A stretch of DNA of 64,000 nt. It comes from Yuukianura sp. NJ FZ-2021 (Eukaryota). Below the pieces are notes generated by a model, which worked only from the letters and a program-made list of their open reading frames with translations, did not search any database and was not told the origin of the DNA. Position 1 is the first letter of the stretch. The number at the start of each line of letters is the position of its first letter. A program made the translations under genes and the position numbers. Shown piece after piece: positions 1,544 through 58,536 of the stretch. The DNA lies in NCBI GenBank assembly GCA_046563655.1, contig CM102287.1:2542001-2606000 (forward strand). Reading direction: 5' to 3'.

Positions 1544-1678
1544 AATATACTTCATTTCGTTACAAATTTTCAAAACACACTTCATTCACTGAAACGTTTG
1601 TTGTAAAAGTTTTTCTAAATTTCGAAAGTAAAATAAACTCTAAGCTCAACCTTGAAATTCTGTAAATTTGGAGACCAT

Positions 1679-2468: not shown

Positions 2469-2490
2469 GTGTGTGTGTGTGTGTGTGTGT
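2469..2490. repeat. (GT)11 microsatellite
   Basis: Read directly from the sequence. Confidence 0.95.
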
Positions 2491-2573
2491 TTTTGAAAAA
2501 TCGATGAATTTGGAGTTTTTTTCTTCAAATTTTGTACTTTTAAAAAACGATTTATTTTTGACTTGAACAGAAA

Positions 2574-16781: not shown

Positions 16782-17306
16782 ATGGCCTTGTCAGGAGGGG
16801 TTGCTGGTGGTCGTTGGATGGTGGCGTTGGTTTTGGTGGGTCTGGCCGGTGGGATCTTGGTTGGTGGGGCCGAGCCACCAATTCCAAGGAAGATGACAGG
16901 CTTAGAGATGTTTGCTATGGCCCTTCTGAACAACGCTTCTTTGATTCCTCCGAAGTTGGAACCTCGTAGTGTGAGTAGTTCGAAGGAAGATGTGCGTACA
17001 GCGGTGTGCCGAATGTACGGAACTGATCCGAAGAGTGTCATGAAAAAGCTGATCCTGGCCATACCTGAGCTCCAAGTGTTGGGAGAGGCGTACGTTGACA
17101 GGAACACTCAGAAGTGCTGTGCTAAACTGGGAGTCGCAGGGTGTGAACAGGTCGACAGAACTGCTAGCAAACAATACGATGGCTCCTTGGATCACCGCAA
17201 AACGGAAGGAAAGAGCGACAAATCCCCTCAAACCAAAATTAAAACAACGCTCAGCCTTCAGCTCAAATTTCTTGTTCTTACTGGTTTCTTAAAACTCCTC
17301 GTCTAA
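16782..17306 (+). CDS. Family member 8, 4-Cys variant with C2 and C6 lost
   Basis: MALSG signal, shared 5' leader, C...(S)...KCC-x7-C...LDH(R) and LKFLVLT tail. Confidence 0.75.
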   Translation: MALSGGVAGGRWMVALVLVGLAGGILVGGAEPPIPRKMTGLEMFAMALLNNASLIPPKLEPRSVSSSKEDVRTAVCRMYGTDPKSVMKKLILAIPELQVLGEAYVDRNTQKCCAKLGVAGCEQVDRTASKQYDGSLDHRKTEGKSDKSPQTKIKTTLSLQLKFLVLTGFLKLLV

Positions 17307-19479: not shown

Positions 19480-22400
19480 ATGAGGAAATTGACACTTCAA
19501 AATCGTTTTGGCGACTATGGGGGGAAAACGACTCTATTTTCCTGGATTTCCATTGGCTTTCTTTTGGCGTCCTTCGGAATTTCTGTAAGTACAAATAATA
19601 ACTAAACTAAGCACCGCTTGAAATTTCCTGGCCTGAGCGGATATATAAAATGTGACGAATTTTTATGCAGATTTGTCACTGCTTTCTTGCATAACAATTT
19701 TTAAATGGTGTCGAAATCAGAAAATTTTCGTCACTAAAAATTGACATATTGTGGTCAGAAAATTTTTTGGTGAAGAAAAATTTTCTGATCTTGGAAATTT
19801 ATGGCCAGTGACATTCTTGGTCTTGGATTTTTTCGGTCGTTTCTTCGGAAAATGTTTGCTTCAGGAAATTTTTTACCAGGAATTTTTTTGTCAGAAACTT
19901 TCTCTCAGGCAATTTAGCGACCTCATCTCACTTTTTGCAGGTCAAAGGTCAAGAGGACAAGCAGATGTGTGTTGTGCATGGAAAATGTGCTCCGGAGGAA
20001 CCTGGCGGTGCACCGCACTATCTCTGTCTGTGGAACAAAGAACCGGAAGTTGTCGCAGAAACTACTGCGATAAACAAGTTGCGGGAATACTGTCCAGAAC
20101 TGGTCGAAAAATACGGAAACAAGTTATGCTGCAATGCTGCGCAGATCAATGACCTTGCAGCATCTTTTGACCTTTCACTGCCCATGTTCAAGCGATGTCC
20201 CACTTGCTTATATAACTTCAGACAAGCATACTGCGACTTCCCATGCTCACCTTATCAGTATCGTTTCATCAGCGTCAACGAAACAATCGTAGAGGGAAAA
20301 CAGGAGAGTGCGAAAAGTGTAAATTTTTACATTGGAAATGAATACGTTGAGGAAACTTACGACAGTTGCAAGGACGTTGTAATGAGCAGTACCAACGAGA
20401 AGGTCATGGCGTTCATGTGCGGACCATGGGGCACCTATCACTGTACTGCCCAAAGGTGGTACGAATTCATGGGAGATAGTACTTCCAACTCATTTACACC
20501 ATTTACAATCAACTACAAGTTCATGGATGTCGTGGACGAAGCAGTTACCGTACCGGGTACCGACGGTATCGTCGGATACAACAACGAAACTTTCGCCTGC
20601 TCCGATGTTGCTCCGGTAAGTTTTTCAAACCGGTAAATTTGAACGTTTGACCTTGAATGACCTTGGAATTTTTGTAGGGAGAGACGATAGCTTGCGGCTG
20701 CGTGGATTGTTTAGGAAGTTGTCCAGCACCGGCTCCGCCGCGAATCAAGACGGAATGGGCGTTTGAATTTGAGTTTGGACCGGAAGAGTTTTTCATTACC
20801 GTTGTGACGCTGATTGGTGTACTGATTATCGTTGTACTGGCATGTGCTTTCAAGAAACAACTGAAAGTACTTGGCGCAGTAATGGATGATGCTGGACTAG
20901 CATTTGAAGAATTCATCGAATTAGTCTTCACCCGATTGGCAACTTGTAAGATTTCACCAATTTTCGACCAGAAAATCGACAATTTTCATGTTTAAACCTT
21001 TTTTGTGTCGGTTTTTAGTTTCTGCCCAATTTCCGATTTTTGTCATAATTCCTGGAATTCTGGCGGTATGCGGTCTCGCAGTCGGATTCGCGTTTCTGCA
21101 AATCACGACGGATCCGGTCGAACTTTGGGCCGCACCAACTTCGCGATCCCGTATCGAAAAAGACTACTACGACACGACATTCGTACCGTTCTACCGAAAC
21201 GAACAGCTGATCGTCACGGCCGTCGGTTTGGGCACAATCGATCACCTGACTGCCACTGGACTAGAAAACTTCGGGCCAATTTTCAATCTAGACTTCATGA
21301 AGGAATTACTTGCACTTCAGGATGCGTTAGCCTACGAAGTCTATGGAATTGACCCAGATACGGGTGAACGCGTGTACCTAGACGACATTTGCTTCAAGCC
21401 ACTTGAACCCTTGAACTCAAAATGTGCCATCATGAGCTACCTGAACTACTGGCAAAATAATTACACAAATATCCTGACAACTGCGAATCGAACTGATGCC
21501 AACGGAGAACCGATAGAAGAAGTTGATAACTATCTGGACCATTTTGAATTTTGTTCGGTCAATACCGCGGCACCAGTTGATGCCACGATGTTACAGATGA
21601 GTTGCATGGGAGATTTCGGTGGACCAATCGAGCCGCGAGTCGTTCTTGGCGGATTTCTGAACTCCAGTAAGTTTACCGGTTTGTTTTATTCCGTACCGGT
21701 TTGACCGGAAACTGTAATGGCGTTTGGCAACAGTCCCATTTTTCCAAAACTGCCAAGAATTGAGATGTAGTGCCTGTTATGGTAGCCTTCCAATTCCATT
21801 TTTTAATTGGAACCTGATGGCTCAATGGTAAAGGTTTTTCCCGGAATGAAGAAAAGTGGGTTCGAGTCCCACTCGGATCATCAATTTTTCCGTACTGTTT
21901 TTCCTTATATTTTAATTCTGTTTTCTCTCCTTAGCCTATCTTCCACCGGATCCACCGTATCAAGATGCCAACACTGCCGTCATTACGTTTATCGTCAACA
22001 ATCATGTGGACAAGCAGAAACAAAGAAAAGCAAAAGCATGGGAAGCTGCCTATATCGAGTACATGAAATCCTATGTTCAGAAAGACGGTCCAATGAAGGC
22101 CAACATGGCCATAGCATTCAGCGCTGAGCGGAGTATCGAAGATGAACTGGAGCGACAAAGCCGGAGCGACGTTGTCACCGTCATGGCGTCCTACATCATC
22201 ATGTTCCTCTACATCGCCGTTGCCCTCGGAGAGCAACATAGCTGGAAGCGACTTTTGGTAAGTCAATTCCAAAAGTTAGAAAGGTCAAATGTCAAAGGTC
22301 AAAATTTGACCTCAACTTACTTTGTTTAGGTGGACAGCAAAGTGTCTCTGGGTCTCGTTGGAGTGTCCATTGTGTTGATGTCAGTCGTGGCATCAATTGG

Positions 22401-24830
22401 ACTCTACGGATTCATTGGGGTCAAGGCAACTCTGATTGTGATTGAGGTCATTCCGTTCCTTGTACTGGCTGTCGGAGTGGACAATATTTTCATCATGGTC
22501 CAGACGCTCCAAAGAACTGAACGAAAACCAACAGAGTCAAGGCCAGAACACATCGGACGGGTCATTGGCCACGTCGCTCCTTCCATGATGCTCAACTCCG
22601 TCACTGATTCTGCGTCGTTTTTCTTGGGTAAGTGACTTTAAATTTCAAAAACTTAAATTTTCAAAAATTTGGGGTCAAAGGTCAGCATTTCAACAAATTT
22701 AAAATTTTTGTTTAGGCGGACTTTCTGGAATGCCGGCAGTACAAGCGTTTGCTTTCTACGCTGGAGCAGCGCTGCTTTTCAATTTCATGTTGCAATTCAC
22801 AGTTTTCATTGCTTTCCTGTCGCTGGATTTGAAGCGCCAAGAAGCTGGACGGTGGGACATCCTTTGCTGGTAAGTGAAAAAGCAATTACGAATTACATAA
22901 ATTACGAATTACTAATGAATTACATCCAATTACTTTGAATTTTTTCAGTATTCCTCAAAAAAGTGCTGAGAAGCCTGTGCACAAAGATGGTTGGCTGTTC
23001 AAAATTTTCAAGAACTTTTACGCTCCGTTCCTCCTGTCGTTCCCTGTTCGGATCTTCGTTCTGATTGGGTTCATCTTGTGGCTGGGTGCTTCCATGATCA
23101 TGATTCCAAAGATCGAGGTGGGGCTGGACCAGCAGTTGTCCATGCCAGAAGACTCCTATGTCCTCACCTACTTCGAAGCCATGCTCAACTACTTGTCAGT
23201 GGGGCCTCCGGTATACTTTGTTGTCAAGGATACGGGGTTTCCATACCATTTGAACCCAGAAACCCAGGATTTGATCAGAGGAGGCCAGAATCCATACTCT
23301 CTTGTGTCCCAAATCTACTCTGCCAGTAGAAGTTCCAATACTTCCTATATTGCCAAACCCGCTGCTTCATGGATCGACGACTATCGTGATTGGGCAGCCA
23401 TAGATGGATGTTGTCTGTTCAACGGAACACGGGAGTACTCCATGTTTTGTCCCAGCGGAGATCCAGATTCGAGGTAAATATGACCTTTGACCTGCTAGTT
23501 TCCTTTGAAAGTTTTTCAAGGTCATTGTTTTTTTTTTCAGGAAATGCCGACCTTGTGAGATGACTTTGGATGAGAACACTGGATTTATTTTGCCAGAGGA
23601 TTTTGAAAAGTACTTGACCTACTTTTTGCGTGACAATCCACACGAGAGTTGTCCAAAAGCAGGTCACTCGGCTTATGGTGACGCAGTGAGATACGACGAG
23701 TCAGAGGATGGGCATGTCCCAACTGCATCGTACTTCATGACCTACCACACCATTCTCAAGACTTCTGCAGATTACATTCAAGCACTGGAAGAAGCGAGGC
23801 TTCTCTCTGCAAACTTGTCTGATACACTCAACACAGGTAAAAACTTTGAAAAAATGCTATTTTTTTAGATTTTGAATTTTGGAAATTTTGAATTTCAGGG
23901 ACAAATTCCACCGTGCATGAAGTTTTTCCGTACTCCATTTTCTACGTGTACTACGAACAATATCTGACCATGTGGAGAGACACAATTCAGTCAGTCGGAA
24001 TCAGTTTCGCAGCCATTTTTGTCGTAACCTTCCTGCTGACAGGGTTCAACATCTTTTCGGCCCTGATTATTCTGCTAACTGTGGCCATGATCATCATTGA
24101 CATCGGAGGACTCATGTACTACTGGGACATTCCACTCAACGCCATTTCTCTCGTCAATCTCGTCATGGTGAGAAGAATTTCAAAAAATCTAGAATTTTGA
24201 AGAGTTTTAGAATTTCCGGGAAATTTTAACCGGGAATTACCGGGAAATGAAATGTGGAGAGTTTTTTTTTTCATTTTGAAACCTGAATTTTTGCCATCGT
24301 GTGCAACCAGAATTTCAACAAATCTAAAACTTCTAAGAATTTCGAATTTTCTGGGAAATACTCTGGGAATTACCGGGAATGTCAACTAGAGAGTTTTTGT
24401 ACCGTTTTTAAACCCTGAATTTTTTTAAATCAATTTTTTTGGTTTCTAGGCAGTTGGAATTGGTGTAGAGTTTTGTACCCATTTGACCCATGAGTTCACG
24501 GTGTCAGAGAAGGAGAGTCGCCTGGCCAGAGCTGCCGACAGTCTCGTCCACATCGGAATCTCCGTTTTCACGGGCATTACCCTCACAAAGCTCGGAGGAA
24601 TCCTCTGTCTCGGATTGGCCAAGTCACAGATCTTCCGGGTATTCTACTTCCGCATGTACTTGGCCATCGTCCTCTTCGGAGCTGCTCATGGCCTCATCTT
24701 CCTCCCTGTTCTCTTGTCTTTCATTGGGCCACCGTCCAGGAGACGCAGAAGGGCTCAGGGGACCCTTAGACCTCCACTGGACAAGGCATTCGTCTTTCAA
24801 GGGCTCCCCCCAACACCCTCCTCTTCCTAA
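19480..24830 (+). CDS. NPC1: Niemann-Pick C1 family sterol transporter, ~1313 aa; exons 19480-19584, 19941-20615, 20678-20945, 21019-21666, 21935-22257, 22330-22627, 22716-22869, 22949-23473, 23541-23836, 23899-24167, 24450-24830
   Basis: Cys-rich NPC1 N-domain ([14 protein letters not shown]), TTDPVELW, sterol-sensing domain ([17 protein letters not shown]), [23 protein letters not shown] and [11 protein letters not shown]. All GT-AG joins are in frame. Confidence 0.95.
21811..21880 (+). pseudogene. tRNA-like element (tRNA pseudogene or SINE head) in NPC1 intron 4
   Basis: A-box TGGCTCAATGG, perfect T-arm GTGGG-TTCGAGT-CCCAC, anticodon stem TTTTC/GAAGA with loop CCGGAAT, imperfect acceptor and D stems, and a T5 run just downstream. 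Confidence 0.65.
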
Positions 24831-31156: not shown

Positions 31157-31696
31157 TTAGAAAAACTTGATTGCTGCTGCTGCAAGAAGAGCAGCGATTC
31201 CATTTTGTAGGACAGCGGTGACCTTTGCGTTAGTGTTGTCTCTTCCACCAAAAACAGCAGCCAAGGTCACGACCCAACCGACATTCAATGTCGCCGCTCC
31301 AGATCCAGGAGGAGCACGGTCCATCTTGACCCCCTTCTCTATGATCTCCTTGATCCTTTCATCCGTGCACTTCGTCAAGACGGTGTTTTGTCCAGTCCAC
31401 TTTTTCCCCTTCTCGCAACATTCCTTGATCAGATCTTCAGCAGTCGGCCAAATTTTGCCCAAATACACTTGTCTGCTGTGGAAGGTGAAACCACTGTCCG
31501 GACCTGCTTTCATCTCGGCATTCGTTTTTGCGTAGTCCTCCGGATCTGAGCAACCACTGTTCGCATATCCGAAAGCAATCCTTTCCACGGTGCCTCCACT
31601 GTACTTTGGCCCTGCTCTTTCCGTTTGGCCACTACAGCTGGAAAAGCAGACGACGGCAACAAAACCACTGATCAGCTTCATTCTGCCCACAATCAT
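31157..31696 (-). CDS. Secreted membrane-tethered 4-Cys protein, family subtype B, member 9
   Basis: Start MIVGRMK, signal peptide, GCSDP...IKECC...KCTDERIKE and two C-terminal hydrophobic segments. Confidence 0.8.
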   Translation of the reverse strand: MIVGRMKLISGFVAVVCFSSCSGQTERAGPKYSGGTVERIAFGYANSGCSDPEDYAKTNAEMKAGPDSGFTFHSRQVYLGKIWPTAEDLIKECCEKGKKWTGQNTVLTKCTDERIKEIIEKGVKMDRAPPGSGAATLNVGWVVTLAAVFGGRDNTNAKVTAVLQNGIAALLAAAAIKFF

Positions 31697-32696
31697 CGGA
31701 ACACGCAAGACGAACAGAAACGAGCGTAACCGATCTAGAGACAGAGATCGGCACTTTAGTAGAGAACAACATAAACGAAAGTTACACATTTGTCTTAGCA
31801 GTGTTGTTTGTTACCAAAGTTAATGACAATTAGTCCGTGACCTCTTGACCTCCTCCAGAAATCCAAATTCCACAAGAGCAGTTTTTGAAGAAGACTGCTT
31901 TCTTCCGCGTCCAAACTACAAGTGGTTGAAACTGGCGACATTTTGAGTGAAAATGGTTTCTCAGATTGTTTGTTCTTTAAACAAAAATTTCACTTCAAAG
32001 TTCAACGCGGGTTGTCATGACGTTTTACTTTTATTTTTTTTCGTAAATTCGTAAAAATCGGTAATTATTGTAAAAATTTTGGTTTCTACCCTAAATTCTA
32101 GAAAAATTGGGTTTGCAGCAAGGTAAATAGAATACTACTTGGTAGTGCGAATGGAAAGTTTGTTTGGTTGCCATGTGGAAAAGGAAACCTAAAATAATGA
32201 CGTCACCCGCTGAAAATACCGGAATTCTGCCAATTATTGGTGGTGTCCTATAGAAACCCGTAAGACACATCTTGTTTACATAAATGCCAGGGGGTTCCAA
32301 TTTCACGATTACGGTATTTTTCAGCTGGTGACGTCACAAACAAAAAATTGCGTTGGTTGCTATGGGCGCCATTTGCAGGGGACTGGGTTTGCAGTAAATA
32401 ATTTACTTTAAGTAAATTAATATTATTATTAAGTAAGTTTACTTTATTTAAGTAATAATTTACTTTTAGAGTAAAATTTTAATTTTTAATTAATTTTAAT
32501 TTAAGTAACATTTTAAAATTTAGTAAAATTTAAATCTGATCACTCCAGAAGTGTTGAAAATTTCAATTTTAGAATTCAAATCGAGTTGTAATATTTGAGT
32601 TTTATTTGTTTCGAAAGTTCTTAAGATATTTGAACATTTGTATTTCGGTTTTTAGCGTAATAATGTGTGTAAAAATAATTTTTGTGTATAAGAATT

Positions 32697-33260
32697 TTAG
32701 AAGAAGTTGATTGCTGCTGCTCCAAGGAGACCAGCGATTACAGCGATTCCATTTTGTAGGACAGCGGTGACCTTTGCGTTAGTGTTGTCTCTTCCCCCAA
32801 AAACGGTCGCCAAGGTCACGACCCAGGCGACATTCAATGTCGCCACTAAAGACCCAGCACCGCTTCGGTCCATCTTGACCCCCTTCTCCACAATTTCCTT
32901 GATCCTTTTATCCGTACACTTCCACAAGCTGTTAGTGTTCTCACCCTTTATCCATTTAAAGTCCTTGTCACAACATTCCTTGATCAGATCATCAGCAGTC
33001 GGCATAATTTTCCCCAAATAGTCTGCTCTTGTGAATCTCCCCTTTTCAAAAACACTGTCCGGAGCTGCTTTGAGGGCCTGCCAGCCAGATTCGTGCTCTT
33101 TCGGATTTAGGCAACCAGTATTCCCGGCACCCAAAGCCTCCCTTTCAATGGTGCCTGAAGCGTACTTTGGCAATTCCCTTCCCTTGGTTTGACCTCTGGT
33201 GCTCCCGATGCAGACGACGGCAACAACAGCCACGATCACCTTCATTCTTCCAACAATCAT
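32697..33260 (-). CDS. Tandem paralog of the 31157 gene, member 10
   Basis: Same start motif, IKECC...KCTDKRIKE and a near-identical C-terminus; flanking DNA is also duplicated. Confidence 0.8.
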   Translation of the reverse strand: MIVGRMKVIVAVVAVVCIGSTRGQTKGRELPKYASGTIEREALGAGNTGCLNPKEHESGWQALKAAPDSVFEKGRFTRADYLGKIMPTADDLIKECCDKDFKWIKGENTNSLWKCTDKRIKEIVEKGVKMDRSGAGSLVATLNVAWVVTLATVFGGRDNTNAKVTAVLQNGIAVIAGLLGAAAINFF

Positions 33261-33493
33261 CACAACACGCACCACGAACAGAACGGAGAGTAACCGACAA
33301 GCCGATCTAGAGACAGAGGAACTTTAGTAGACAACGACATAAACGAAATTTAGACATTTGCATTAGCTGTGTTGTTTAGTTACCAAAGTTAATGACGATT
33401 AGTGCCTGACCTCTTGACCTCCTCCACAAACGTAAATTACACAAGAGAAGCTTTTGAAAAAGACCACTTTCTTCCGTGTCCAAACTGCAAGTG

Positions 33494-34055
33494 CACTGTG
33501 GTTGTTTTCTTATTTTTTTGGTTCTCATGGAATCAAATAAATTTTGTAAACAAACTAACTTATCAGCGTATTTTGACCCAAAAATTGACGTACCGATTGA
33601 TTTGTTGCCTCAAAATGCCTCACCCTCTAATGACAAACCCAATGACAATTAACGTACTTGAAGACTTGGTCTTCGACATTTTCTTGCGGAAATCCCCGGA
33701 AAATGCTCAGTTATGACACAAGGCTTATCCAAAGTACATCCAAATTCTTGTTGATTTCCTTGGTTGCAATAATCATAATTTGCGAATTTGTGATTTTGCA
33801 TTCATAACTGAACTTTATATTGAGATTTGGCGTCACCACTTTCGACACGCTAAATCCTTATTTTCAAAAAGGAAACTCGGTGAATTTAAACTATTCTTTG
33901 TCTTTTGTGTCTTTCTGGCCGGTCGTCAATTAAGTAAATGGGTACACTGTTCACTGGTTTATTCTTTCAACCGACTCAGTTGTCAACGGCAACCTTGTGA
34001 TTAAAGTTTGTTACAAAAGACGACCGAACTTTTTGCTTCGAATCCGACCACTGTG
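33494..34055. mobile_element. 562-bp non-autonomous Transib-like DNA transposon
   Basis: Ends CACTGTGGT and (reverse) CACAGTGGT. 5-bp TSD AAGTG at 33489-33493 and 34056-34060. The paralogous empty site has a single AAGTG at 31920-31924. Confidence 0.85.
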
Positions 34056-36810
34056 AAGTGGTTGAAACTGACGACGACAGAATTTTTGAGTGAAAATGGT
34101 TTCTCAAATTGTTTGTTCTTTAAACAAAAAATTACGTCTGAAAATTTGAATTGAGTTATCATGGAATTTTTTTTTTTCGTAAGTTCGTAAGAATCGTAAC
34201 ACGTACAAATTTTGGTTTTATAAACCAAAACCCTGCCAGAATGTGAATTTAAAAGTAAAAACCAACCACATTTCCAAAGTAGAAACTAAAAAATCTGGAG
34301 AAAGTTTTATTTCAAAATGTTTGAGCCGTCCGCAGTTTTAAAAATTTTGGTTCAAACTGTTTGAGGTGTTGGCGGTTTTAAAAATTTTGTTTTAAATTTT
34401 GTGTTCAAACAGCTCGTTCTCACATAAGGTGCCGGAAGAGGTAAAAGTGAAAGTAAAAGTTTGGAGTTGAAATGAGACCGCGGTGGTTCCGTGGTGAAAG
34501 GGGGAGGATATGATATGTGGATGCTTTTAAGCAACTCAAGGATCAACCTTCTCCTAAACTTTTCCAAAAAGACCATAGCGGACTCTAAATTTTTGAAAAG
34601 TTGAGTCAGAACTGCCATGCTACGATGGTGGGGCAATGGAGCCACCACGGTGGGGCCTTTTGCCTATTGACTCAGAGGAATAAAGAGAAGTTAGAAATTA
34701 TGCTGCATAATTAACAGCGTAATCGGAAATCAATACTTCTCTCCTAATTCACTTTCTAACAAACTCCACAAAAACTCTCAGTCTCACTCCACACTTTCAC
34801 CGACTCTCACTTCCTTTAATTTCAAAAAAAAAACTTTTAATTTTCCAAAATTTCAAAATAGGAACTGTGAAGTCGTTTTGGTTTTCAAATTTCAGGTAAG
34901 TCTAAAGCAAATTTTTGTAACACGACAGCTCCCCTGCTCAAAAATTCTGAATTTGAGAATTCGTTCAAGATTTTTTTTGGTGTAAAAGTTTGGTGCAACT
35001 TGAAAATTTTCACTAAAATTCATGCATACACTAAGAAGTGTAAAAATCAGTTTGGACGTTGCTTTCGTGCTAAAAATTGCAATTTTTTTTTGTAATTCCG
35101 TTGAGACTCCTCGTGCAATATTAATTAACGGAGCCAGTAACTAGCTGACGCTCAGTTTGCAAAAAACGGTGGGTTTCAGTCGTAACTTATTGAAACTTCA
35201 GCTTGATTTGAAAGTTTCAATAGCTGGAAGTTCTCGTCAGTTTTTTGTATTTCCATTGAAGATTTGGGAAACTCCTGAAGGTTTTGGAGTTTGGAGTGCG
35301 CAGACTTAGCACAAATTCGGATATTCTTCCCTTGAAAACTTCTGAGTAGAAGAAGAGCGATCCCGGCAGTTCTCACTCTCAGTTTGTTCTCTAAAGCTGT
35401 CTGGAAACGTCACTTTCCAGTAGTGCCAATAGTTCCTAAAATATTCTAAGTACTACAAAAGACTTTCAATAAGTTTTTCCAAAAGTGAAGGATTTTTGAA
35501 AATACAAAATTGGAAATGAAGTTCAAACTCTAGATTGATCAATCGACATTAACTAATAAACGACTTTCTCTAATTCGTGTTCCAGAGTAAAAATCTCATT
35601 CGGCTTAGAGCCGTGGCGGCCGAAAAATCGTCGTAAACTTCAGAAAGGTGTGACAATAGCCGCCGTTTGCAAGAATTACACGAAATTGCTGTTAGATTTT
35701 GCTTAATTTGTAAGCTACAAAACCAGTCTCAGGCATCACTCTTCATTTTAAAAAAAATCTTGAAACAAAACCACTATTGTCCATTGTCCTTAAAAATTTT
35801 ATGGAACTTTTGTACTCCAATTTTTGGTTTGAGACTCACGCGGGAAAGTAATTCAAAACTTTACTTACTTCCATTTTGTTTTGTTTACTTCCATTCTTTG
35901 TTCTTTCCTTCTTGTTTTTCAAAATTTTCATCAAAATATTCAAAAAATCGTTTTACTCTTTCAGAATAATTTTTTTCGAAGCTAAAAATCCTGAAATCTT
36001 TTTGCAAAAACGAACAAAGTTGCTGTTTCTCTAACGCCCTCATTTCATAAATTTTGATCTCTCTTTTATCAGATTCTGTGACACTCCAAATTCAATTTGA
36101 AATCCATTTAAAACCCATCATCCAACAGATATTTTTTGAATACTTCCAACATCATCAGGTAAGTTCAAATACAGAGTGAAAGTTTAACATAGTGTTCAAA
36201 TTTAGCATAATGTTAAAATTTTAGTATTCAACTGAATGTATCCTGTGACTAGCTGTTATTCCTAAACGAAAAGTATGAAATAGAAATGTGAGAGGCTGAT
36301 TTGGTTCATCTTGTCCCAAAATCTCATCATGTTCTTTCTATTTTCCAGATCCAAGAGAATCCATTTCTCCGGCAGAGAAAGCGGGAGAAAGCGAAGTCTT
36401 AGAAGCCTTTCCAATTCTAATATAAAATTATGTTCATCTGCCACACTTTCAGAGTTTCAGAAAAGGAAATTGGACTAACTGAGAACTGCTGAGCCCATCT
36501 ACAACTTTGGTGTCATTTTCCCTAATAAGACGTCTCTCCAGCCTCTCTTTCAAGTCTTCCGGGAATAACCGAGAAATGTGACACTTTGGCAGTCCAAAAG
36601 AAGAACAAAGTCCAAGATATCCACAAATTCTGGACGAGAAGCAAAAATTTCAGAAATTTCACCAATTCAGACGCCAAATTTCTGGACCAGAAAGAAGAGT
36701 TTCAGAAATTTCACAAATTCAGAAGTTGAAGTTCCAGAAATTGTAGTCCAGAAAGAAGAATTTCAGAATTGAAAAGTCGAAACTCCAGCAATTCTGCAGC
36801 AGCCAACAGA

Positions 36811-36875: not shown

Positions 36876-36923
36876 AAATGTTGGTGTCGTTGGAAAATCT
36901 AAATTGAACATAACAGTTCAATC

Positions 36924-39900
36924 ATGGGCCCTAAAATGTCAACTTTACTTTTGATCTTGGTGACCTTGGTGACCTGGGACAGAGGTCAAACAGAGGTCAA
37001 GGCCAATCTGGACATTGAAGGTTGTCACCTACAGTCATCAGGTCATCATCAACATCATCTTCAAAGTGATTCAGCAGTTGACACTTCAAAAACAGAAAGT
37101 GACTACGCAGACTCCGTTTTATGTCAAATCAGAACTTTACAGAGTGACCTTGACTTTGACAACTTGACTCTTCACTTGGCCGTCCCCATGGAGAAGGTCA
37201 CAACTCTCAAGGTCATGTGCAATGACCTTTTGTTCTTCGAATCAGTGCTGAGTCCAGGTCAACTCAGTGGATTCTCCGAGGTCATTGACCTGTCAATTGA
37301 GCAGTGCAAACTCAAGGTCATCACGGCAGACGCTTTTCTTGGTCTGGACAATTTGAAACACCTAAAAATCAATACTGGCAACTCAGACTGGGCTGCCAGG
37401 TCACTCGAACTGTCCAGTTCAGCTTTTGAAACTGTGAAATCTCTCCAGAGTCTCCATCTAGGCTACAATCACATGTGGGCCCTTCCACAAAAACTTCTGT
37501 GTCCCTTAGAGGCCCTTAAAGTCCTCAACTTGACCCACAATCTATTAAGTGACATTGATGACCTTGGCCTCTCCGGCTCAAATCCACCGCAATCCAGGAA
37601 AAGTACTCCAGGAATTTTCAGAAGTTCGGCTGGAAGCGACATTTTAGCGGCGACATTTCAGCCGACGTGTCTCTCTGAGCTCAAAAAGCTGGACATTTCG
37701 CACAACAGTCTGCGCCGACTCGGATCTCGTCGGTTTGAGAACCTAAAGCGCCTGGAAGATCTGCGTCTCCATGACAACTGGCTGGAGGAAGTCCATGACC
37801 TCACGCTTTTCGGTCTCTCAGGACTCAAATCGCTGAATTTGTCGTCCAATCGCTTAATCGCTCTTCCTTCTACGCTGTTCCAGCATTCCCCGCAACTTAG
37901 AAACCTTGATTTAAGAAATAACTCACTTTCTTCACTTTCTCCCGCGCTTTTCGCGCGTCTTGAGTTTTTAGTCGTTTTGGATCTCAGTAGAAATAGTTTA
38001 TCTAGCCAGTGGATGACAGTAGAAAGTTTCCGAGGATTAGTGCGATTAGTGATTCTCAATTTAAGTCACAATCAACTAACGCACTTGACCCCTGCGACAT
38101 TCAGTGACCTCTACACTTTGCAAGTGCTTGACCTTAGTAATAACTTGATTTCGTCAATTGCCGACTCCACTTTTACGCCAATGAGTAACCTCCATGAGCT
38201 CAATTTGGCCAGAAATAAGCTCGTTTCAATTGAAAGCAAGATGTTCAATGGGCTATACGTTCTGCACAAACTCAGCTTGGATTATAATCAGATCACGCGA
38301 ATTGATTTAGAAGCGATGAAAAATTGCACAAGCTTGAGTGACCTCGGATTGGTCGGAAATTTATTAACGGAAGTTCCCGAAGCTCTCCGAGGACTCCAGT
38401 ACTTGAAAACGCTTGATTTAGGTAACAAATCCTAAGTTTTAAAGAAATTCTGAATTTTGAAGAAAGTTCTGAATTTTTCTTAAGAAAGTTCTGAATTCGT
38501 CTTTTTTGTATTTTTTTTCTGAAGAAAATTCTCAATTTGTCCTCTTTTTTTTGTCTTTTTTTTTAGGAGAAAACCGAATTTCTAGAGTTTCTAACGACTC
38601 TTTCTCTGGGATGAGTCAACTGCACTCTGTTCGTTTGGTGGAGAATGACCTTGAGGAGATTCCTTCTGGACTGTGTGACCCCGTGAGTGACCTCCGTGTG
38701 TTGAATGTTGGTCAGAACAAAATCAAGAGAGTTGGGTCAAAAGCATTCGTGTCATGTCCAGAACTGAGAGTACTTCGACTGGACTCCAATGCCCTGGACA
38801 GTCTCCCGTCCAACTTGGTTCCACAGTTACCAAACCTCATCTGGCTCAATGTCTCTCAAAATCAGATTCAAACTGCACACTACTCAGCACTTCCGCCATC
38901 ACTCGAGTGGTTCGGTAAGAAAATTCAAAAAAGTAGGACTATTTTAACAAAAAAAAAATTCTGAAAAAAAAATTCTGAATTTCTTTTAAATATTAGTTCA
39001 CTTTCTGCTTTCACGAGAAGAGAAAACAAAACAAATGAAAATGACAATTTTTTTTCAGATGTGAGTCACAATCGATTGGTGGCTCTCGGTGGAGCTTCGG
39101 GTTCTGGAAGTGGAGCCACCATGGGAAAAAGTGGACTTTCTCCTGGTCATGTCCACCGCTCTAGTCATCATAATGCTAAACTCCGTTTCGTAGATGCTTC
39201 ACATAACCTTTTGACCCAACTTGACCTCAATTCAGTTCCAGCATCACTCGAAAAACTTGTGGTCAGTCATAATCGTTTGACCAAAATTCTGCCAGACACT
39301 TTTAGTCGCTCGACTCATTTGCATCGTGTGGATTTGATTGGAAATCAGCTGGAAACTATTCCATTAGCAGCACTCAGGTTCCACCAAATTCCTATGTCCA
39401 AACCACTTCCTCAATTTTCTCTAGGTAATCAAAATTTTTAAATTTTTTGAATTTTTTAAACATTTTCGAGCCAATTTCAATCTTCCATCGCGTAAAGCTG
39501 TATTAATCCAAATTCATCCGAAAACGAAAGTCTAAGAGAAAGATTTCTGCAAATATTCTCAGGAATTCCGAATTCGGTCAATATTCTCAGGAATTCTGAA
39601 GAATTCTGTGAAAATTTTTTGAAAAAGTGATTTTTTTTTGAAATTGTAGGTGGAAATCCGTTTTTGTGTGACTGTGACATGGAGTACTTGATGCGCATAA
39701 CACAACTGAGTGCAACACGTCAGTATCCAGTCGTCCTTGACCTGGATGCCATCGTCTGTCGTCTCACCTACTCTCGATCTGTGTCACACATTCCTCTTCC
39801 GGAAATGAAACCTCAAAACTTCTTATGTCCTTACACCTTCCACTGCTTCCAAACTTGCCAGTGCTGCGAATTTGACGCCTGCGGTAACTCAAATTTAAAA

Positions 39901-42900
39901 TTTCTCAACAAATTTTGAAGAAAAAGAAAATTTTGAAGAAAAATGTTGTCAAAAGAAAAGTCGTTCAGAAAAACTTGAGTTCTATCAATAGCTCTAAAAT
40001 TCATTTGAAAGTTCACTACTGCACACAGTGTCGTGAGATCCACTCAAAGTGGAAATTTTTTGTCGAATTTTTTTGTTGTATTCGATCCTAAACTGCTAGT
40101 AATGGACCAAATTGACCATAAAAAATGACCTGGACCGAAATTTTTCAAAAAAAACGAAAAATCCGAAATTCGGAGTTTTCATTTATCCGGAGCTATTTCT
40201 CGGAGTTTCTCAACCAGAAGCAATAGTTCACTGCAAAAAACGCTTAAGTTTTGAATTTCAGCCCATTCGGTTGCAAAATGGCGGAGTTATAGCGAATTAT
40301 CCGAATTTCGGGGTCAACTTTGCGAGGGTCTCCCGGGTGTTCCAAAGGGATATTCGAAGTATGCAAGGTGGCGTTGGAAAGGCATTCCCTTGGGCTACAA
40401 ATTATACCTTAACACTTTTTCGAATATACCTTTGGAAATTGAGATATGTCGCCCGGAATGAAAGCGACAATTCATGGGGGGATAAACATAGCTTATAGAA
40501 TACCGTAAAAAAATTAATGCCGAAATAGTGCAACCGATGTAGTCAATTAATGCTTACGTATTGATTGACACTAGTATTATGTATTCTGAAATAATCTGAG
40601 TTCAATCTGAACCAAGTTGATTTGTAGAATCAATTATAAATTTGTAGCTTAATGCTAATGGACCAAAGTTCCCCCCATGAATTGTCGCTTTCATTCCGGG
40701 CGACATATCTCAATTTCCAAAGGTATATTCGAAAAAGTGTTAAGGGATAATTTGTAGCCCAAGGGAATGCCTTTCCAACGCCACCTTGCATACTTCGAAT
40801 ATCCCTTTGGAACACCCGGGAGACCCTCGCAAAGTTGACCCCGAAATTCGGATAATTCGCTATAACTCCGCCATTTTGCAACCGATTGGGCTGAAATTCA
40901 AAACTTAAGCGTTTTTTGCAGTGAACTATTGCTTCTAGTTGAGAAACTCCGAGAAATAGCTCCGGATTTAAGAAAACTCCGAATTTCGGATTTTTCGGTT
41001 TTTTTTGCGAAATTTCGGTCCAAATTATTTTTTATGGCCAATTTGGTCCATTACTAGCAGTTTAAGATCGAATACAACAAAAAAATTCGACAAAAAATTT
41101 CATTTCCACTTTGAGTGGATCTCACGACACTGTGCTGCAGCCGAAATGACATTTTGATTTTGATTTCTAGACTGCTCCATGACGTGTCCCACCAACTGCA
41201 CTTGTTACCATGGTGACTCCTGGACAGCCAATGTCGTGGACTGCGCAAATTCAAACTTAACTTCCGTCCCACCGCGCATTCCAATGGACTCCACCGCTGT
41301 TAACTTAGATGGCAATTTTATCCCGGTTTTAAAAAGTCACAGTTTCATTGGTCGAAAAACTTTGAGAAGTTTATATCTCAACTCCTCCAGAATCGACTCC
41401 ATCAGCAACAAATCTTTCAATGGACTCCAGTCTCTCGAGTATCTCCATCTCCAGGGAAATCTTCTTCGCCATCTCCATGGATACGAATTTGAGCATCTCA
41501 ACAAATTAAAAGAACTTTATCTCCAGGATAACCTTATCCAGACTATCTCCAACTCTACTTTCTTATCTTTGAAAGAACTGGAAATTTTAAGACTCGATGG
41601 AAACCGAATTTCGGTTTTTACCGTTTGGCAGCTCAGTTTGAATCCATATTTGGTTGAAATCGGACTCGGAAGGAATCCATGGTCATGCGACTGTCACTAT
41701 TTCAATCAACTCCATGGCTGGGTCATTGACAACAAAAACAAGGTCATTGACCTCAGTGACATTCGGTGTGTCTGGAATGTGACAAATCAGGTTGGGCCAT
41801 ATTTGGTTCAGTACAATTCAACTTGCGAAGGGCCCTGGGCCCTTATTCAAGGGGAGCCCTTTGACCTTCAAGGGCTCCTGTCCCTTGGAGCACTTCTTCT
41901 GACGATTCTGGTGACCTTGACCTCTGCGATTTTAGTTTTCGTCTGTCGAGACAATTTAAGATTTTGGTTTCATAAAAAGTTTGGGCTTAGATTGTGTTCT
42001 GGACGAGATGATTTCAGTGAAAGTGAAAAGTGTTATGATGCTTACTTTCTCTACAGCCAAAAAGATGAAGAATTTGTGACAACAAGAGTCGTTGACGAGA
42101 TGGAAACGGTGGAAAACTTTCGGTTTTGTCTCCACTATCGTGATTTACTTTTTGAAAGTGGTGACCTCAAGGAGGTCATGACCTCGGCGCTGGACAGTTC
42201 TAAAAGTTTAGTCTTTTTCTTGTCAAGGAATTTGTTCCAGGGAGAGTGGACAAACGCAGAGTACCGTTCAGCGTTTCAAGCTCTGCTAAAAACCAGTGCT
42301 AAAAAGCTCCCCGAGGGGGTCAAGACTATGGTAATTGTGTATATTGAACCAATTCCAGAACATGAAATGATGCTGGACGTTTCGTCATGGCTAAAAAATG
42401 GCACTAACACTCTCGTTTTAAAGTGGGCAGACAAAAAATTCTGGTCAAAGTTCAAATTCGCACTGCCGGATCCGTCAGTAAGTCATTATCATTCGAACAT
42501 CACGACTTCTTCGGCAGCATCGAGTGACCGTGCCTCAAGTGGTCTCAAATTTTACACTCCTTCTGGTGGTGACCCCAACTTGACCTTTGACCCAGCTCAA
42601 AAGTACTGGCAGTACAATCACAAGTCGGACTTTGTGCAACCAGCATATAGTGAGGGGTACACTCAGAATGAAGATGACGAAAATGAAATGCCGCCGTTTC
42701 TGTTTCAGCCGAACTCCAAATCGCCAGTACCGCTCGGGAATTTTGCCAAACCGAGTTCCAGCGGAACCTCCGGGGGTTCAAGCTACTTGAATCTGGAGGG
42801 GGAACATGTTTACTCGACCTTGGACCCCCCAAGTCCCACCGCCAACATTCAAATGCCTGGTGGATACACTGGCCCCACCCAGCATCAGTACCACTGGCAG

Positions 42901-42996
42901 CCCCACCCCTCACCCAGAAGGGCCCCACCAAGGAGAAAGTCAACTAAAGAAGGCTCAGCTCCACCCGGTGGGACAGTTCAAACTTATTTGGTCTAA
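36924..42996 (+). CDS. Multiple-cysteine-cluster Toll-like receptor of the long-Toll class (Toll-2/6/7/8; closest in motifs to Toll-7/18w), ~1423 aa; exons 36924-38421, 38567-38914, 39059-39424, 39650-39883, 41171-42996
   Basis: Signal peptide, many LRRs, internal NPFLCDC...CQCCEFDACDCSMTCP cluster, PPRIPMD, second NPWSCDC cap, TM helix, TIR (YDAYFLYS, CLHYRD, FWSKFKFALP), EHVYSTLD and C-terminal TYLV. Splices are in frame. Confidence 0.93.
40024..41134. mobile_element. 1111-bp foldback, non-autonomous Transib-like element in Toll intron 4
   Basis: About 460-bp inverted arms (40024-~40482 and ~40670-41134), both starting CACAGTG. 5-bp TSD CTGCA at 40019-40023 and 41135-41139. Confidence 0.9.
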
Positions 42997-46305: not shown

Positions 46306-46789
46306 AAGATGGCGTGGCGTAGTCCTCACATTCTATCGTTCATTTTCTAAAAAGAAAACCTAAAAATTCCTCGATTTTGTGTAAAATTGTCTTCTTGTGA
46401 AAATTTTAAAAAAAATCAAAAATCGGGACCGATTTCTGTCGGAACTTTGAAAATCAGAAAATTTTTCTAGAATTTTTTCATAGAATTTCCGCTGTTTTCA
46501 TGGTACCATTTGGAAGGGTTAGGTAACTCTTGTTTGTTTCTTAGAGGTTGTCAAGTTTTCCTTGAAATTGCTTGTGGCGCAAAATATTGAAATGATTTTG
46601 AAGTTTGATCGCATCGCTGGAGAACCGAGAATTGTCAAATCATAGACTTTCTGGAACGTTCTGGAAGAAACGCAGTCACTTTTGGCCCAAATCCGGAGAA
46701 AATAGGTGAAAATCAAGAGAAAATCGGAGTAATCAGGAGAAAATCGGGGTAAATTCCTAAAAAATCGGATTTCCGTGAACTCCTTGACC

Positions 46790-47338
46790 ATGAAACGATT
46801 GTTCTGTGCCGTCTTCGTCGTTTCCGTGGTCACCGCAATGCTGGAGGCCAATGACACAACCACCGATGCCCCACCTAGAGAGAGCATCGTAGAACCGATG
46901 GTGGCTCTCGTGAATCCGAATGCCACCGAGAGGCCCTTGGTGGCTCCTCCACCAGAAACAGGAATGTACGTGATCTGGTCACTTGCAATGAAGGCCTGTG
47001 CCAATCCCCACCCTCGGGGGAGGTTCAGTGACCTCGCGAAGTTGAACGAGGTCAAAGGTCACCGCTTCCCCCACAAAGCATTTTGGCTGTTCATGGACGG
47101 AGTGAAGGGCGTGGTCAGAGAATGCTGCGATGGGAAGGGCTTGTACAAGTGCACGGAGGACGAACTGGAGGAACTCACGGCAGAATATGCTAAAATTGCA
47201 AATGCTGAACTGGAGAGAAGAATTGCAGAGAAAATGGCCAAGAAAACTTCAAATGCTGGCAGTACCAAGCACTTTCTTTCTGGAATTTTTGAAATTTTGG
47301 TCATTCCTCTCTATAAGCTGTTCAAAATCTTATTTTGA
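46790..47338 (+). CDS. Secreted, putative GPI-anchored 4-Cys protein, member 11
   Basis: Signal peptide, ACANP...GVVRECC-x7-CTEDEL, SNAG omega-like site and hydrophobic tail. Confidence 0.8.
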   Translation: MKRLFCAVFVVSVVTAMLEANDTTTDAPPRESIVEPMVALVNPNATERPLVAPPPETGMYVIWSLAMKACANPHPRGRFSDLAKLNEVKGHRFPHKAFWLFMDGVKGVVRECCDGKGLYKCTEDELEELTAEYAKIANAELERRIAEKMAKKTSNAGSTKHFLSGIFEILVIPLYKLFKILF

Positions 47339-49378: not shown

Positions 49379-50299
49379 CTAAGAATCCATGACGTCTATG
49401 CCAAGGTCTTCATCGCCCCTTGTCCCGTCACTGCGCAAGGCATTGATGAGGTGACATTTTGGCCGACCATGTTTGTCCGGTGCGAAACAGTGCACTCCGA
49501 ACTCCGGTGTATTCGCCTGTCGTCGTATTCGGGGTTTCCCGGTACCGGTTTTGTGCTTCCGGTACGACTTTTTGTCGAATCCCAATGTCGCCTGTGCCTT
49601 GTACCGATTTTTACTAACTTTGTCCAGATTGATGACGACTGCAATTCCATGGTAGCATAAAAACTCACAGTCGCGTGAATTTGGAGTAATGTAGTATGGA
49701 TTGTGTTTGTAAGGTCCTGTGCGCAGAATCTCTTCTTTCGTGAATTCAGAAAAGTAGAGTTGACCAAAGTGGTCGTGACCTCTGACCTTGACATTCAAGT
49801 GGATGTGACTCGTTCTGCCTCTGATCCAGCCAGGAAACACTGTCGTGAACCGAACAACTCCTTTGTCGTTCGACACTTGATACCCACGAAGAAACTTCCG
49901 TCCGGTACGTTCCGAACGGCAATCACGAAAACCGGATCGGCAATCCGGATTATCCATTGGGCCTTCAGCAGAAGGAAGCGGCGCTTCGCTCCAAGTTTTA
50001 AAAGTGGAGTAATTCCCCACTGCATCTGCATGCCACAGTTCAACTTTGACTCCAGAAATGGTGGAACACGATCCGAGGTCAAGCAAGGTCAACTTCAGGT
50101 CAATCCGAACTCCGGCCGATCCGTCTCGAATGTCACTGCGTTTTGGAGAGTTCGGTAAGTAGTGTTGACCCTTAAGGGTACGCGGGTACAGGGATCGCCC
50201 GCGGCAATAACCCTTTTTGTAACGCACTGCTGCAGAGAACTTCAAATGATAAACGAAAATTACTAAAAATTGGACGAAAACTAAAAATTTCGTTGGCAT
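49379..50299 (-). CDS. Secreted intradiol ring-cleavage dioxygenase-like protein (intronless)
   Basis: Signal peptide; DIRDG..GV, VELWHADAVGNYS, FLRGYQVSN..G.V.FTTVFPGW.RGRTSHIH and GQLYF motifs. Confidence 0.85.
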   Translation of the reverse strand: MPTKFLVFVQFLVIFVYHLKFSAAVRYKKGYCRGRSLYPRTLKGQHYLPNSPKRSDIRDGSAGVRIDLKLTLLDLGSCSTISGVKVELWHADAVGNYSTFKTWSEAPLPSAEGPMDNPDCRSGFRDCRSERTGRKFLRGYQVSNDKGVVRFTTVFPGWIRGRTSHIHLNVKVRGHDHFGQLYFSEFTKEEILRTGPYKHNPYYITPNSRDCEFLCYHGIAVVINLDKVSKNRYKAQATLGFDKKSYRKHKTGTGKPRIRRQANTPEFGVHCFAPDKHGRPKCHLINALRSDGTRGDEDLGIDVMDS

Positions 50300-56444: not shown

Positions 56445-56898
56445 TTTGGTTAACCAACATAAGACAAAACCGAAAAAAAAATGAAAATATTAAAAAAAAA
56501 TTTCAAAATTGTGAAAGTTTCTTTTCTCTTTGTTGTAAATCAAACAATGCGAGGGATTGTGTGAAGTGTTGTCGAATAATTAAAGGAACCAACTTCGACG
56601 TAGATATAGTTTCTTATAGAATAACTTTCTTTTAAACCAGATTAAGCTAAGCTGTTTTTAGTCTCGTGCGTTGAATTCCGTTCCGATTAAAAAAATTCAC
56701 AGCAAGACGACCATTTTTGTTCCAAAATATTTTTAACTTTTGCATTTCCATGGAAACCCAGTCCGTTCGGTGCATAAAGTTTGCTTTTAAAAGTTTTTGT
56801 GAAAGTGTGACCTTGAGGTCATCGCAGTGACCTCAAAATTCTGCGTGGTAAACTGAAGCGAGGTCACGCAGTAAAGCAGCTCAAATTGTCAAACTAAA

Positions 56899-58334: not shown

Positions 58335-58536
58335 TTTGATTAACCAACGCATAAGACATAACCAACCGAAAAAAAATGAAAGTAAAAAAAAAAGTTTTTC
58401 AAAATTTTGAAAGTTTCTTTTTAACTTTTCTATTTCTGTAAATCAAACAAAGTGAGGATTATGATGAACTTTATTTTAACTCCGATTAATGTCTGGATGG
58501 ACAAATTCGTTTAGATTCGATTTTCTGTAGGGCTTT

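What the first reader, a model, noticed from the sequence alone, without database searches (positions are those of the whole stretch)
33494..34055. Transib-like insertion with a 12-RSS-like end, with its empty site in a neighbouring paralog
Seen: read inward from 34055 the end is CACAGTG-gtcggattcgaa-GCAAAAAGT. This is the exact V(D)J heptamer, a 12-nt spacer and a 6/9 match to the nonamer ACAAAAACC including the A5 core. The other end is CACTGTGGT with no nonamer. The TSD is AAGTG, and the duplicated region at 31911-31935 shows the uninterrupted site. Established: Transib and RAG-like transposons have CAC-initiated RSS-like TIRs and 5-bp TSDs. Inference: a RAG1-related transposase was active after the gene duplication.
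Basis: partly seen in the sequence, partly recalled or inferred. Interest (0 to 1): 0.7.

Follow-up and report, generated by a model that had tools for sequence, protein, structure and literature searches.

The report
Non-autonomous Transib with an unusual parent
This is a short, non-coding copy of a Transib cut-and-paste transposon (a known relative of the RAG1 immune recombinase) whose recombination-signal-like end is ordinary for that group, although its full-length parent carries an unexplained second gene and a repeated RNA-like motif.

Summary
In detail: a 562-bp insertion (33494-34055), TSD AAGTG, empty site in three paralogous loci. It is one of 27 two-ended copies in the genome (24 with an exact 5-bp TSD) and an internal-deletion derivative of a 6.1-kb element with the same ends (80-83% identity) that encodes a coding-intact, three-intron Transib transposase (D-E spacing 211 aa, closest structure HzTransib) and no RAG2. 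The 12-RSS reading is weak: the 'nonamer' is an A-tract without fixed register, its C occurs in 4 of 23 copies, the other end has no 23-spaced nonamer, and the transposase lacks the GRP nonamer-contacting motif. RSS-like Transib ends are in print since 2005, and this scan very probably met this family before on other DNA (e1-7495219). What I did not find in print lies in the parent: a second, same-strand, ATG-less reading frame under selection, and a roughly 50-nt motif placed 167-219 nt before the splice acceptor of both genes, repeated at the same places in a 45%-identical relative from a metagenome. Its function is untested; no RNA data were available.

The parts
33494..34055 (+). Non-autonomous Transib element, 562 bp; longest ATG frame 50 aa; built from the left ~385 bp, a ~40-bp inner piece and the right ~115 bp of the parent type
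33489..33493 (+). Left target-site duplication AAGTG
34056..34060 (+). Right target-site duplication AAGTG
33494..33504 (+). Left terminal inverted repeat CACTGTGGTTG (family majority CACAGTGGTTG; C1 A2 C3 T6 G8 invariant in 23 of 23)
33505..33519 (+). Left T-rich tract (positions 12-26), at the same distance from the end as the right-end A-tract; T13, T14, T17, T18, T25 invariant in 23 of 23
33542..33555 (+). Left subterminal motif TTTTGTAAACAAAC, shared with the right end but 11-12 nt further in
34006..34018 (-). Right subterminal motif TTTTGTAACAAAC
34028..34036 (-). 'Nonamer-like' GCAAAAAGT; in the family an A-tract (A22-A24 invariant in 23 of 23; C21 in 4 of 23)
34037..34048 (-). 12-nt 'spacer'; its first bases GTCG continue the inverted repeat and are conserved, unlike a free RSS spacer
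34049..34055 (-). Heptamer CACAGTG at the right end (20 of 23 copies; CACTATG in 3)
31920..31924 (+). Empty site (single AAGTG) in the promoter region of paralogue A
32697..33260 (-). Host gene B, intact 187-aa frame with an apparent signal peptide and hydrophobic tail, no Pfam hit; the insertion lies 234 bp upstream of its ATG
31157..31696 (-). Host gene A, 179-aa paralogue of gene B, no Pfam hit

Best explanation
The 562-bp piece is a non-autonomous Transib DNA transposon made by internal deletion of a roughly 6-kb element of the L042/L033 type. It codes for nothing and was moved in trans by a RAG1-core-like Transib transposase without RAG2. Shown: ends, TSDs, family, shared ends with a coding-intact transposase gene, DDE triad. 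Inferred from HzTransib/RAG biochemistry: the enzyme pairs the two ends, cuts at the CAC border by nicking and hairpin formation, and inserts with a 5-bp stagger that host repair fills in, giving AAGTG twice. Inferred here: end recognition rests on the heptamer plus the next four bases, an A/T-only tract at positions 12-26 of both ends (T-rich left, A-rich right), and probably a subterminal TTTTG..AAACAAAC motif set 11-12 nt deeper on the left; it is not RAG-style nonamer reading, since the transposase has lost the GRP motif. The insertion landed upstream of host gene B after the gene duplication and left its frame intact. L042 itself need not be the mobiliser: it is only 80-83% like this copy, so a sister element not in the assembly may have been the parent.
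For: 27 two-ended copies, 24 with exact 5-bp TSD; end-pattern searches add no further two-ended copy (25 left ends, 32 right ends). L042 (G000:C1:1812728-1818833, 6106 bp, TSD CGATA) matches element bases 1-384 at 83% and 448-557 at 80%. Three GT-AG introns of 66, 59 and 76 bp give an open 688-aa frame with D267, D373, E584; D-E spacing 211 lies in the Transib range 206-214 and not at RAG1's 253 (PMC1131882 section 7). Exon 1 hits HzTransib 6pqn at E 3.4e-37; its model (pLDDT 89) matches HzTransib first and RAG1 next. L033 (3971 bp, TSD CACTG) is a longer deletion derivative with transposase remnants. L009 and L010 are identical over the 330 and 110 end bases compared but have different TSDs, so the family moved recently. 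GRP is present in 83 of 113 homologues that span the region, absent in L042, L071, P0003 and P0004, which group at support 0.988.
Against: No parent closer than 83% to this copy was found in the assembly. TSDs are not GC-rich (0.40 against 0.38 in flanks), whereas Transib targets are described as GC-rich (PMC1131882). [quoted passage not shown] Splicing and activity of L042 are predicted, not observed.
Confidence: 0.9

Rival explanations
1. The right end is a functional 12-RSS equivalent, read as RAG1 reads the nonamer, and the element is part of a 12/23-type or RAG-like (RAG1L-RAG2L) transposon.
For: Exact heptamer in 20 of 23 right ends; A22-A24 invariant; 7 of 9 match in L002, L003, L028; Transib families with RSS12/RSS23 ends are described (PMC1131882); NBD-like helices in the model.
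Against: No nonamer at spacer 22-24 on the left end (at most 4 of 9); register not fixed (spacer 11 as good in 18 of 23); nonamer positions 8 and 9 are C in 1 of 23 each; GRP absent; no CCGHC tail; no long opposite-strand frame in L042.
Confidence: 0.06
2. The element belongs to another CAC-ended superfamily (CACTA/EnSpm or Chapaev), since this copy starts with CACTG.
For: Left end CACTG in L001 and L002.
Against: The family majority is CACAG (18 of 23 left ends); TSD is 5 bp, not the 2-4 bp recalled for those groups; both long copies carry a Transib transposase.
Confidence: 0.01
3. The element inserted before the gene duplication and was lost cleanly from the other paralogues.
For: One of the three empty sites has an extra A next to the target, which could be a footprint.
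Against: It would need loss from three of four sites; the element is 96% like copies elsewhere while the paralogous flanks are 76.5-86% alike.
Confidence: 0.03

Closest known systems
Transib superfamily, including the RSS12/RSS23-ended families Transib5 (D. melanogaster), Transib2_AG and TransibN1-N3_AG (Kapitonov and Jurka 2005, PMC1131882; passages and section 7 read)
   Same: CAC-initiated heptamer ends, A-rich tract inside the end, 5-bp TSD, about 700-aa DDE transposase with D-E spacing 211, non-autonomous derivatives outnumbering the parent.
   Different: Only one end has an A-tract (about 12 nt in) and the other has no 23-spaced nonamer; targets are not GC-rich; the transposase lacks the GRP motif; the parent is 6.1 kb rather than 3-4 kb and carries further coding exons.
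HzTransib (Helicoverpa zea; PDB 6pqn; PMC4840297 passages read)
   Same: Best sequence and structure match of the partner transposase; RAG2-independent; heptamer-like ends with little true nonamer likeness; 5-bp TSD.
   Different: The partner has a 150-aa helical N-terminal part absent from the solved HzTransib chain, three introns, short asymmetric ends and a second gene.
Nozomi/Kodama and Transib-6 of Drosophila (bioRxiv 10.64898/2026.08.26.747230; passages and section 8 read)
   Same: Internally deleted, MITE-like derivatives of a Transib that pile up at one size; here 19 of 27 two-ended copies are 559-576 bp.
   Different: Kodama copies share one deletion and measure 1.4 kb; here at least four different internal junctions give nearly the same length.
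RAG/RSS and RAGL-A/RAGL-B transposons (bioRxiv 10.1101/2023.08.20.553239; PMC8355894; passages read)
   Same: Heptamer CACAGTG, 5-bp TSD, RAG1-core fold, and an 11-12 nt offset of a motif between the two ends.
   Different: No RAG2L, no GRPR/K, no CCGHC tail, no 12/23 nonamer pair; the offset motif lies 30 and 41 nt inside the heptamer.

Membership tests
Transib superfamily | 5-bp target-site duplication | tested here: met
   24 of 27 two-ended copies exact, 2 with one mismatch, 1 with 4 bp; L019 and L020 are one insertion duplicated with its flanks
Transib superfamily | Ends begin with CAC and a CACAGTG/CACAATG-like heptamer | tested here: met
   CAC in 23 of 23 left and right ends
Transib superfamily | Linked RAG1-core-like DDE transposase, second D to E 206-214 aa | tested here: met
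   L042: D267, D373, E584, spacing 211; HzTransib best hit; splicing predicted in a script
Transib superfamily | A-rich nonamer-like tract 23 (or 12/23) nt after the heptamer | tested here: inconclusive
   A-tract at 11-13 nt on the right end only; T-tract at the same place on the left
Transib superfamily | Preference for GC-rich targets (typical, not defining) | tested here: not met
   TSD GC 0.40 in 22 TSDs against 0.38 in flanks
Transib superfamily | Nick-hairpin cleavage and transposition activity | not testable with these tools
   Needs a biochemical or cell assay
Transib families with 12/23 ends (Transib5 type) | RSS12-like end paired with an RSS23-like end | tested here: not met
   Left end at most 4 of 9 at spacers 22-24 in 23 copies
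RAG-like (RAGL) transposons | RAG2-like gene convergent with RAG1-like gene | tested here: not met
   No opposite-strand frame over 114 aa inside L042 and no kelch or PHD hit in its exons
RAG-like (RAGL) transposons | GRPR/K motif (RAGL-A, RAG1) or CCGHC tail (RAG1L) | tested here: not met
   Neither pattern in the 688-aa protein; GRP in 83 of 113 spanning homologues but not in this clade
Hammerhead ribozyme (motif in the parent element) | Core N3-U4-G5-A6-N7-N8-A9 with a 3-8 pair, stem II, GAAA, stems I and III and a cleavage triplet | tested here: inconclusive
   All 7 copies fit a relaxed core with A3-U8 (scan written after seeing the motif); stems I and III with a triplet can be drawn by eye for L101, but no such strand exists in L042 or L033; no Rfam hammerhead hit
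HDV-like ribozyme (relative L103) | Double-pseudoknot fold reaching the Rfam cut-off | tested here: inconclusive
   RF02682 at L103 4238-4302, 30.9 bits, E 0.015, below the gathering score of 44

The most novel reading that the evidence does not exclude
The parent of this element defines a GRP-less Transib lineage that builds its proteins from cassettes. One short start exon (ending ATG|GT in L042 and L033) is spliced, in cis or in trans, onto alternative acceptors that each open a frame in phase 0: the transposase, an acidic accessory protein and a basic one. A conserved structured RNA of about 50 nt, sitting on a 5' splice-site-like GT 167-219 nt ahead of the transposase and acidic cassettes, controls this choice and may be self-cleaving (hammerhead-like core in L101/L102; an HDV-like fold at the matching place in L103). 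That would be a cut-and-paste DNA transposon regulating its transposase through an RNA switch or ribozyme. The same lineage would read its ends through a subterminal motif offset by one helical turn, an independent route to RSS-like asymmetry.
Probability: 0.17. Interest if true: 0.75.

Novelty: new variant of a known kind. Interest (0 to 1): 0.36.

Why it matters
For the 562-bp insertion itself, little: it is a clean new member of a known superfamily, and RSS-like Transib ends are the founding observation of that field. It does give a natural test pair for how Transib ends are read, because the same genome holds GRP-bearing elements with symmetric A-tract ends (L040, L072) and a GRP-less lineage with asymmetric ends (L042). 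If the parent's second gene and repeated RNA motif prove functional, they would show an RNA-level control of transposase production and an accessory protein other than RAG2 in a Transib, which bears on how a one-gene Transib could take up a partner gene. The novelty class refers to the parent lineage; the short element alone would be a new member of a known kind.

Tried and rejected
Expression: no RNA holder listed for L042, so nothing is concluded on splicing or expression. Insertion polymorphism: contigs of four DNA runs (two samples at most) laid on 32600-35000 show joints across the element in X2, X3 and X4, but these fit the empty paralogues (the inserted letters of one X4 joint match the fourth paralogue) and prove no empty allele; one X3 contig joins a flank with 10 differences to the left end, unexplained; depth on the element is far above the flanks, as for a repeat. 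RAG2 family search of the genome found nothing, but its control rang nowhere, so it shows no absence. First metagenome scan with the L042 exon found no relative; the second, with alignment A4, gave 7 loci, none with both ends. Second gene: no homologue by word search, no Atlas hit, only L042 and L033 in the genome, no Pfam hit over a cut-off (one sub-threshold Cauli_DNA-bind hit, E 0.0017; none); the acidic frames of L101 and L102 are homologous to each other (42%, E 1e-22) but not detectably to that of L042 (E 0.58) or L071 (E 1.8). RNA motif: single-sequence folding gave no support (z -0.30, -1.05, 0.66); no Rfam match of note; absent from viral and prokaryote contigs by exact pattern; a model built from the 7 copies found no further convincing copy in 15 loci, L071 and L103 included (one 12.9-bit hit). 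Twister, pistol and HDV readings of the motif were tried by eye from recall and did not fit. The N-terminal 80 residues of the transposase model had no clear fold match (best Z 5.0). The first tree run did not finish; FastTree on 144 rows and 235 columns was used. Literature: searches Transib+TIR+nonamer+heptamer, Transib+Collembola, Transib+second ORF (55), Transib+HzTransib+nonamer-binding, Transib+subterminal+MITE, ribozyme+DNA transposon+hammerhead, Transib+ribozyme, hammerhead core variants: no listing described a Transib with a second same-strand gene or a ribozyme-like motif; for only listings were seen. Repbase, most subscription papers, the figure alignments of PMC1131882 and bioRxiv supplements were not seen and could hold such a family.

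Full report
Observation. The insertion runs from 33494 to 34055 (562 bp) between two copies of AAGTG (33489-33493, 34056-34060). The right end read inward is CACAGTG, a 12-nt stretch, then GCAAAAAGT, 6 of 9 against the RSS nonamer; the left end is CACTGTGGTTG. The paralogous promoter has a single AAGTG at 31920-31924, and two more paralogous sites about 55 kb away on the same contig are also empty, one with an extra A. The element has no ATG frame over 50 aa and lies 234 bp upstream of the ATG of an intact 187-aa host gene without Pfam hit.

The family. A genome search gave 46 matching pieces at 71-100% identity. I could delimit 27 copies with both ends: 24 have an exact 5-bp duplication, two have one mismatch and one has 4 bp; L019 and L020 are one insertion duplicated with its flanks. 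A 5-bp match is expected by chance at 0.0012. Pattern searches for the ends (25 left, 32 right) added no two-ended copy, though the patterns came from the known copies. TSDs are not GC-rich (0.40 against 0.38). L009 and L010 are identical over the 330 and 110 end bases compared and have different TSDs, so the family moved recently. Nineteen of the 27 copies measure 559-576 bp although at least four different internal junctions are visible; the query was itself 562 bp, but copies of 727-6106 bp were found as well. A similar pile-up of deleted Transib derivatives at one size is described for Nozomi/Kodama (bioRxiv 10.64898/2026.08.26.747230, passages and section 8).

The partner. Two long copies share both ends. 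L042 (G000:C1:1812728-1818833, 6106 bp, TSD CGATA) matches the element at 83% over bases 1-384 and 80% over 448-557. With three GT-AG introns (66, 59, 76 bp) it gives an open 688-aa frame with D267, D373 and E584 (splicing predicted in a script). The D-E spacing of 211 lies in the Transib range of 206-214 and not at the 253 of RAG1 (PMC1131882, section 7 read). Exon 1 hits HzTransib at E 3.4e-37, and its AlphaFold model (mean pLDDT 89) matches HzTransib first and RAG1 next. L033 (3971 bp, TSD CACTG) holds a broken, partly deleted transposase. No parent closer than 83% to the 562-bp copy is in the assembly, so the mobiliser may have been a sister of L042. The timing claim stands as an inference: paralogues A and B are 76.5% identical over 808 nt and the flank is 86% like a third paralogue, while the element is 96% like its nearest copies, and 3 of 4 paralogous sites are empty.

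Is the end a 12-RSS? In 23 non-redundant copies (L010 and L020 dropped as duplicates; L024 and L027 not included) the nonamer score at spacer 12 is 5 in ten copies, 6 in ten and 7 in three, and spacer 11 scores as well or better in 18. The C of the nonamer is found in 4 of 23, all in this subfamily, and the final CC in 1 of 23 at each place. It is an A-tract. In its favour, A22-A24 are invariant. The left end has a T-rich tract at the same positions, followed like the right one by GTTC, and scores at most 4 of 9 at spacers 22-24, so there is no 12/23 pair. In the window 1.5% of nine-mers reach 6 of 9 with A5A6. The transposase has no GRP motif, which in RAG1 contacts the nonamer (bioRxiv 10.1101/2023.08.20.553239, passages), and no CCGHC tail; GRP is present in 83 of 113 homologues spanning the region, while L042, L071, P0003 and P0004 lack it and group at support 0.988. 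Against over-reading this: the model keeps helices that align to RAG1 from residue 405, and HzTransib responds to the nonamer although it lacks most of that domain (PMC4840297, passages). RSS-like Transib ends, with true RSS12/RSS23 pairs in five families, are in print (PMC1131882; PMC8355894, passages). The real asymmetry lies deeper: TTTTG..AAACAAAC starts 41 nt inside the heptamer on the left and 30 nt on the right, an offset of 11-12; it was the best left-right match, reached by 0 of 200 block shuffles (a simple null).

How it works. Shown: ends, TSDs, family, linkage to a coding-intact Transib gene. Inferred from HzTransib and RAG: the transposase, made from a full-length element elsewhere, pairs the two ends, cuts at the CAC border through a nick and hairpin, and joins them to a target with a 5-bp stagger that repair turns into the duplication. 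Inferred here and untested: binding uses the 11-nt terminal repeat, the A/T tracts and the offset subterminal motif, perhaps through the N-terminal helical part (no clear fold match). Confidence that it is a non-autonomous Transib moved in trans: 0.9.

What the parent adds. Behind the transposase stop, L042 and L033 carry a same-strand acidic frame that opens at a splice acceptor without an ATG; its first 26 codons differ between the two by 8 silent changes and 1 amino-acid change, and three basic exons follow. No homologue or family was found. A motif of about 50 nt, beginning at a GT that looks like a 5' splice site, lies 205 nt before the transposase acceptor and 167 nt before the acidic acceptor in L042, and 175 nt before it in L033; the genome has only these three copies. 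A relative from a metagenome contig, L101 (45% identical transposase, breaks at the same places), has the motif at the same two places, 204 and 213 nt before the acceptors, and L102 has two copies; their acidic frames are homologous to each other but not detectably to that of L042, and neither contig shows the element ends. L042 and L033 share an upstream exon ending ATG|GT, which would supply a start in the right phase to all cassettes; L101 has no such exon, though an in-frame ATG directly precedes its acceptor and an upstream ATG exon of the right phase can be read by eye. The 7 motif copies share a 9-pair structure, 98% of cells paired, with 2 pairs changed on both sides; they stand for about two lineages, so this is weak, and single-sequence folding gave no support. 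The core AGUA-hairpin-GAA fits a loop-E motif (recalled). It also fits a hammerhead-like core with an A3-U8 pair in all 7 copies, against 1 hit in 128 kb of window (scan written after seeing the motif); a U3-A8 covariation is in print (PMC4209133, passages), A3-U8 I did not see (PMC3088659, passages), Rfam gave no hammerhead hit, and L042 and L033 lack a cleavage strand. A third relative, L103, lacks the motif but has an HDV-like fold about 100 nt after its stop (30.9 bits, below the cut-off of 44), which may belong to another insertion. L071, in the same clade, has neither motif nor this gene. The 562-bp element keeps none of these parts.

Verdict. The insertion is real and is a non-autonomous Transib; its 12-RSS likeness is ordinary Transib anatomy, partly flattered by two substitutions in this subfamily. 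It works like HzTransib and is a member of Transib; it is not a RAG-like transposon and not a 12/23 family. The parent's second gene and repeated motif were not found in my literature searches (listings only; Repbase and supplements unseen) and are the reason for the class 'new variant' and for an interest of 0.36.

Noticed in passing
L042 5574-5524 and 2741-2691 (- strand); L033 4057-4108; L101 632-700 and 3512-3580; L102 2154-2222 and 3168-3236: Conserved motif of about 50 nt on a 5' splice-site-like GT, 167-219 nt before the acceptors of the transposase and acidic cassettes; loop-E-like or hammerhead-like core; no Rfam family.
   Followed up: partly
L042 2571-2185, 1861-1832, 1754-1650, 1595-1470 (- strand); L033 4236-4634, 4970-5432: Second gene inside the parent element: an acidic exon under purifying selection and three basic exons, none with its own start; no homologue found.
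   Followed up: partly
L103 4238-4302: HDV-like ribozyme fold (RF02682, 30.9 bits, below cut-off) about 100 nt after the stop of a related Transib transposase; a GC-rich, possibly structured stretch also lies at L103 1410-1500 upstream of the gene.
   Followed up: partly
L001-L027 (G000, 19 loci): Nineteen of 27 two-ended copies are 559-576 bp long although at least four different internal junctions occur; left-end and right-end trees disagree, so several copies look mosaic.
   Followed up: partly
L040 3217-6708 (G000:C4): Separate Transib, 3492 bp, TSD CGGAG, symmetric ends with an A-tract 13 nt after CACTATG, transposase with a GRPK motif.
   Followed up: partly
L072 2712-5774 (G000:C8): Separate Transib, 3063 bp, TSD CCTGG, both ends with a 6 of 9 nonamer match at spacer 22, uninterrupted 626-aa frame with GRP.
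   Followed up: partly
L071 3074-8150 (G000:C2): GRP-less Transib of the same clade as L042, 5077 bp, TSD AGCCG, 7 of 9 nonamer match at spacer 12 on one end, and a 99-aa acidic frame on the opposite strand (7165-6866); it sits 45 bp from copy L005 of the family studied here.
   Followed up: partly
L038 4075-4698 (G000:C8): A 433-bp element with L071-type ends inserted in the right end of a copy of this family.
   Followed up: no
L004 (G000:C6:6515735-6517210) and L028 (G000:C3:8300488-8301630): Copies of the family interrupted by nested insertions of about 900 and 580 bp.
   Followed up: no
L042 6269-5865: Tandem array with a 51-bp period in the 5' region of the parent element.
   Followed up: no
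window 1061-17306, 31157-33260, 46733-47338: Many short single-exon frames for proteins with apparent signal peptides, cysteine pairs and hydrophobic tails, in tandem; genes A and B have no Pfam hit.
   Followed up: no
window 19745-24830; 36903-42996; 49379-50302 (-); 55123-62758: By eye from the frame list (names recalled, not searched): an NPC1-like gene, a Toll-like receptor gene, an intron-free intradiol-dioxygenase-like frame that may be of bacterial origin, and four tandem F-box-like genes.
   Followed up: no
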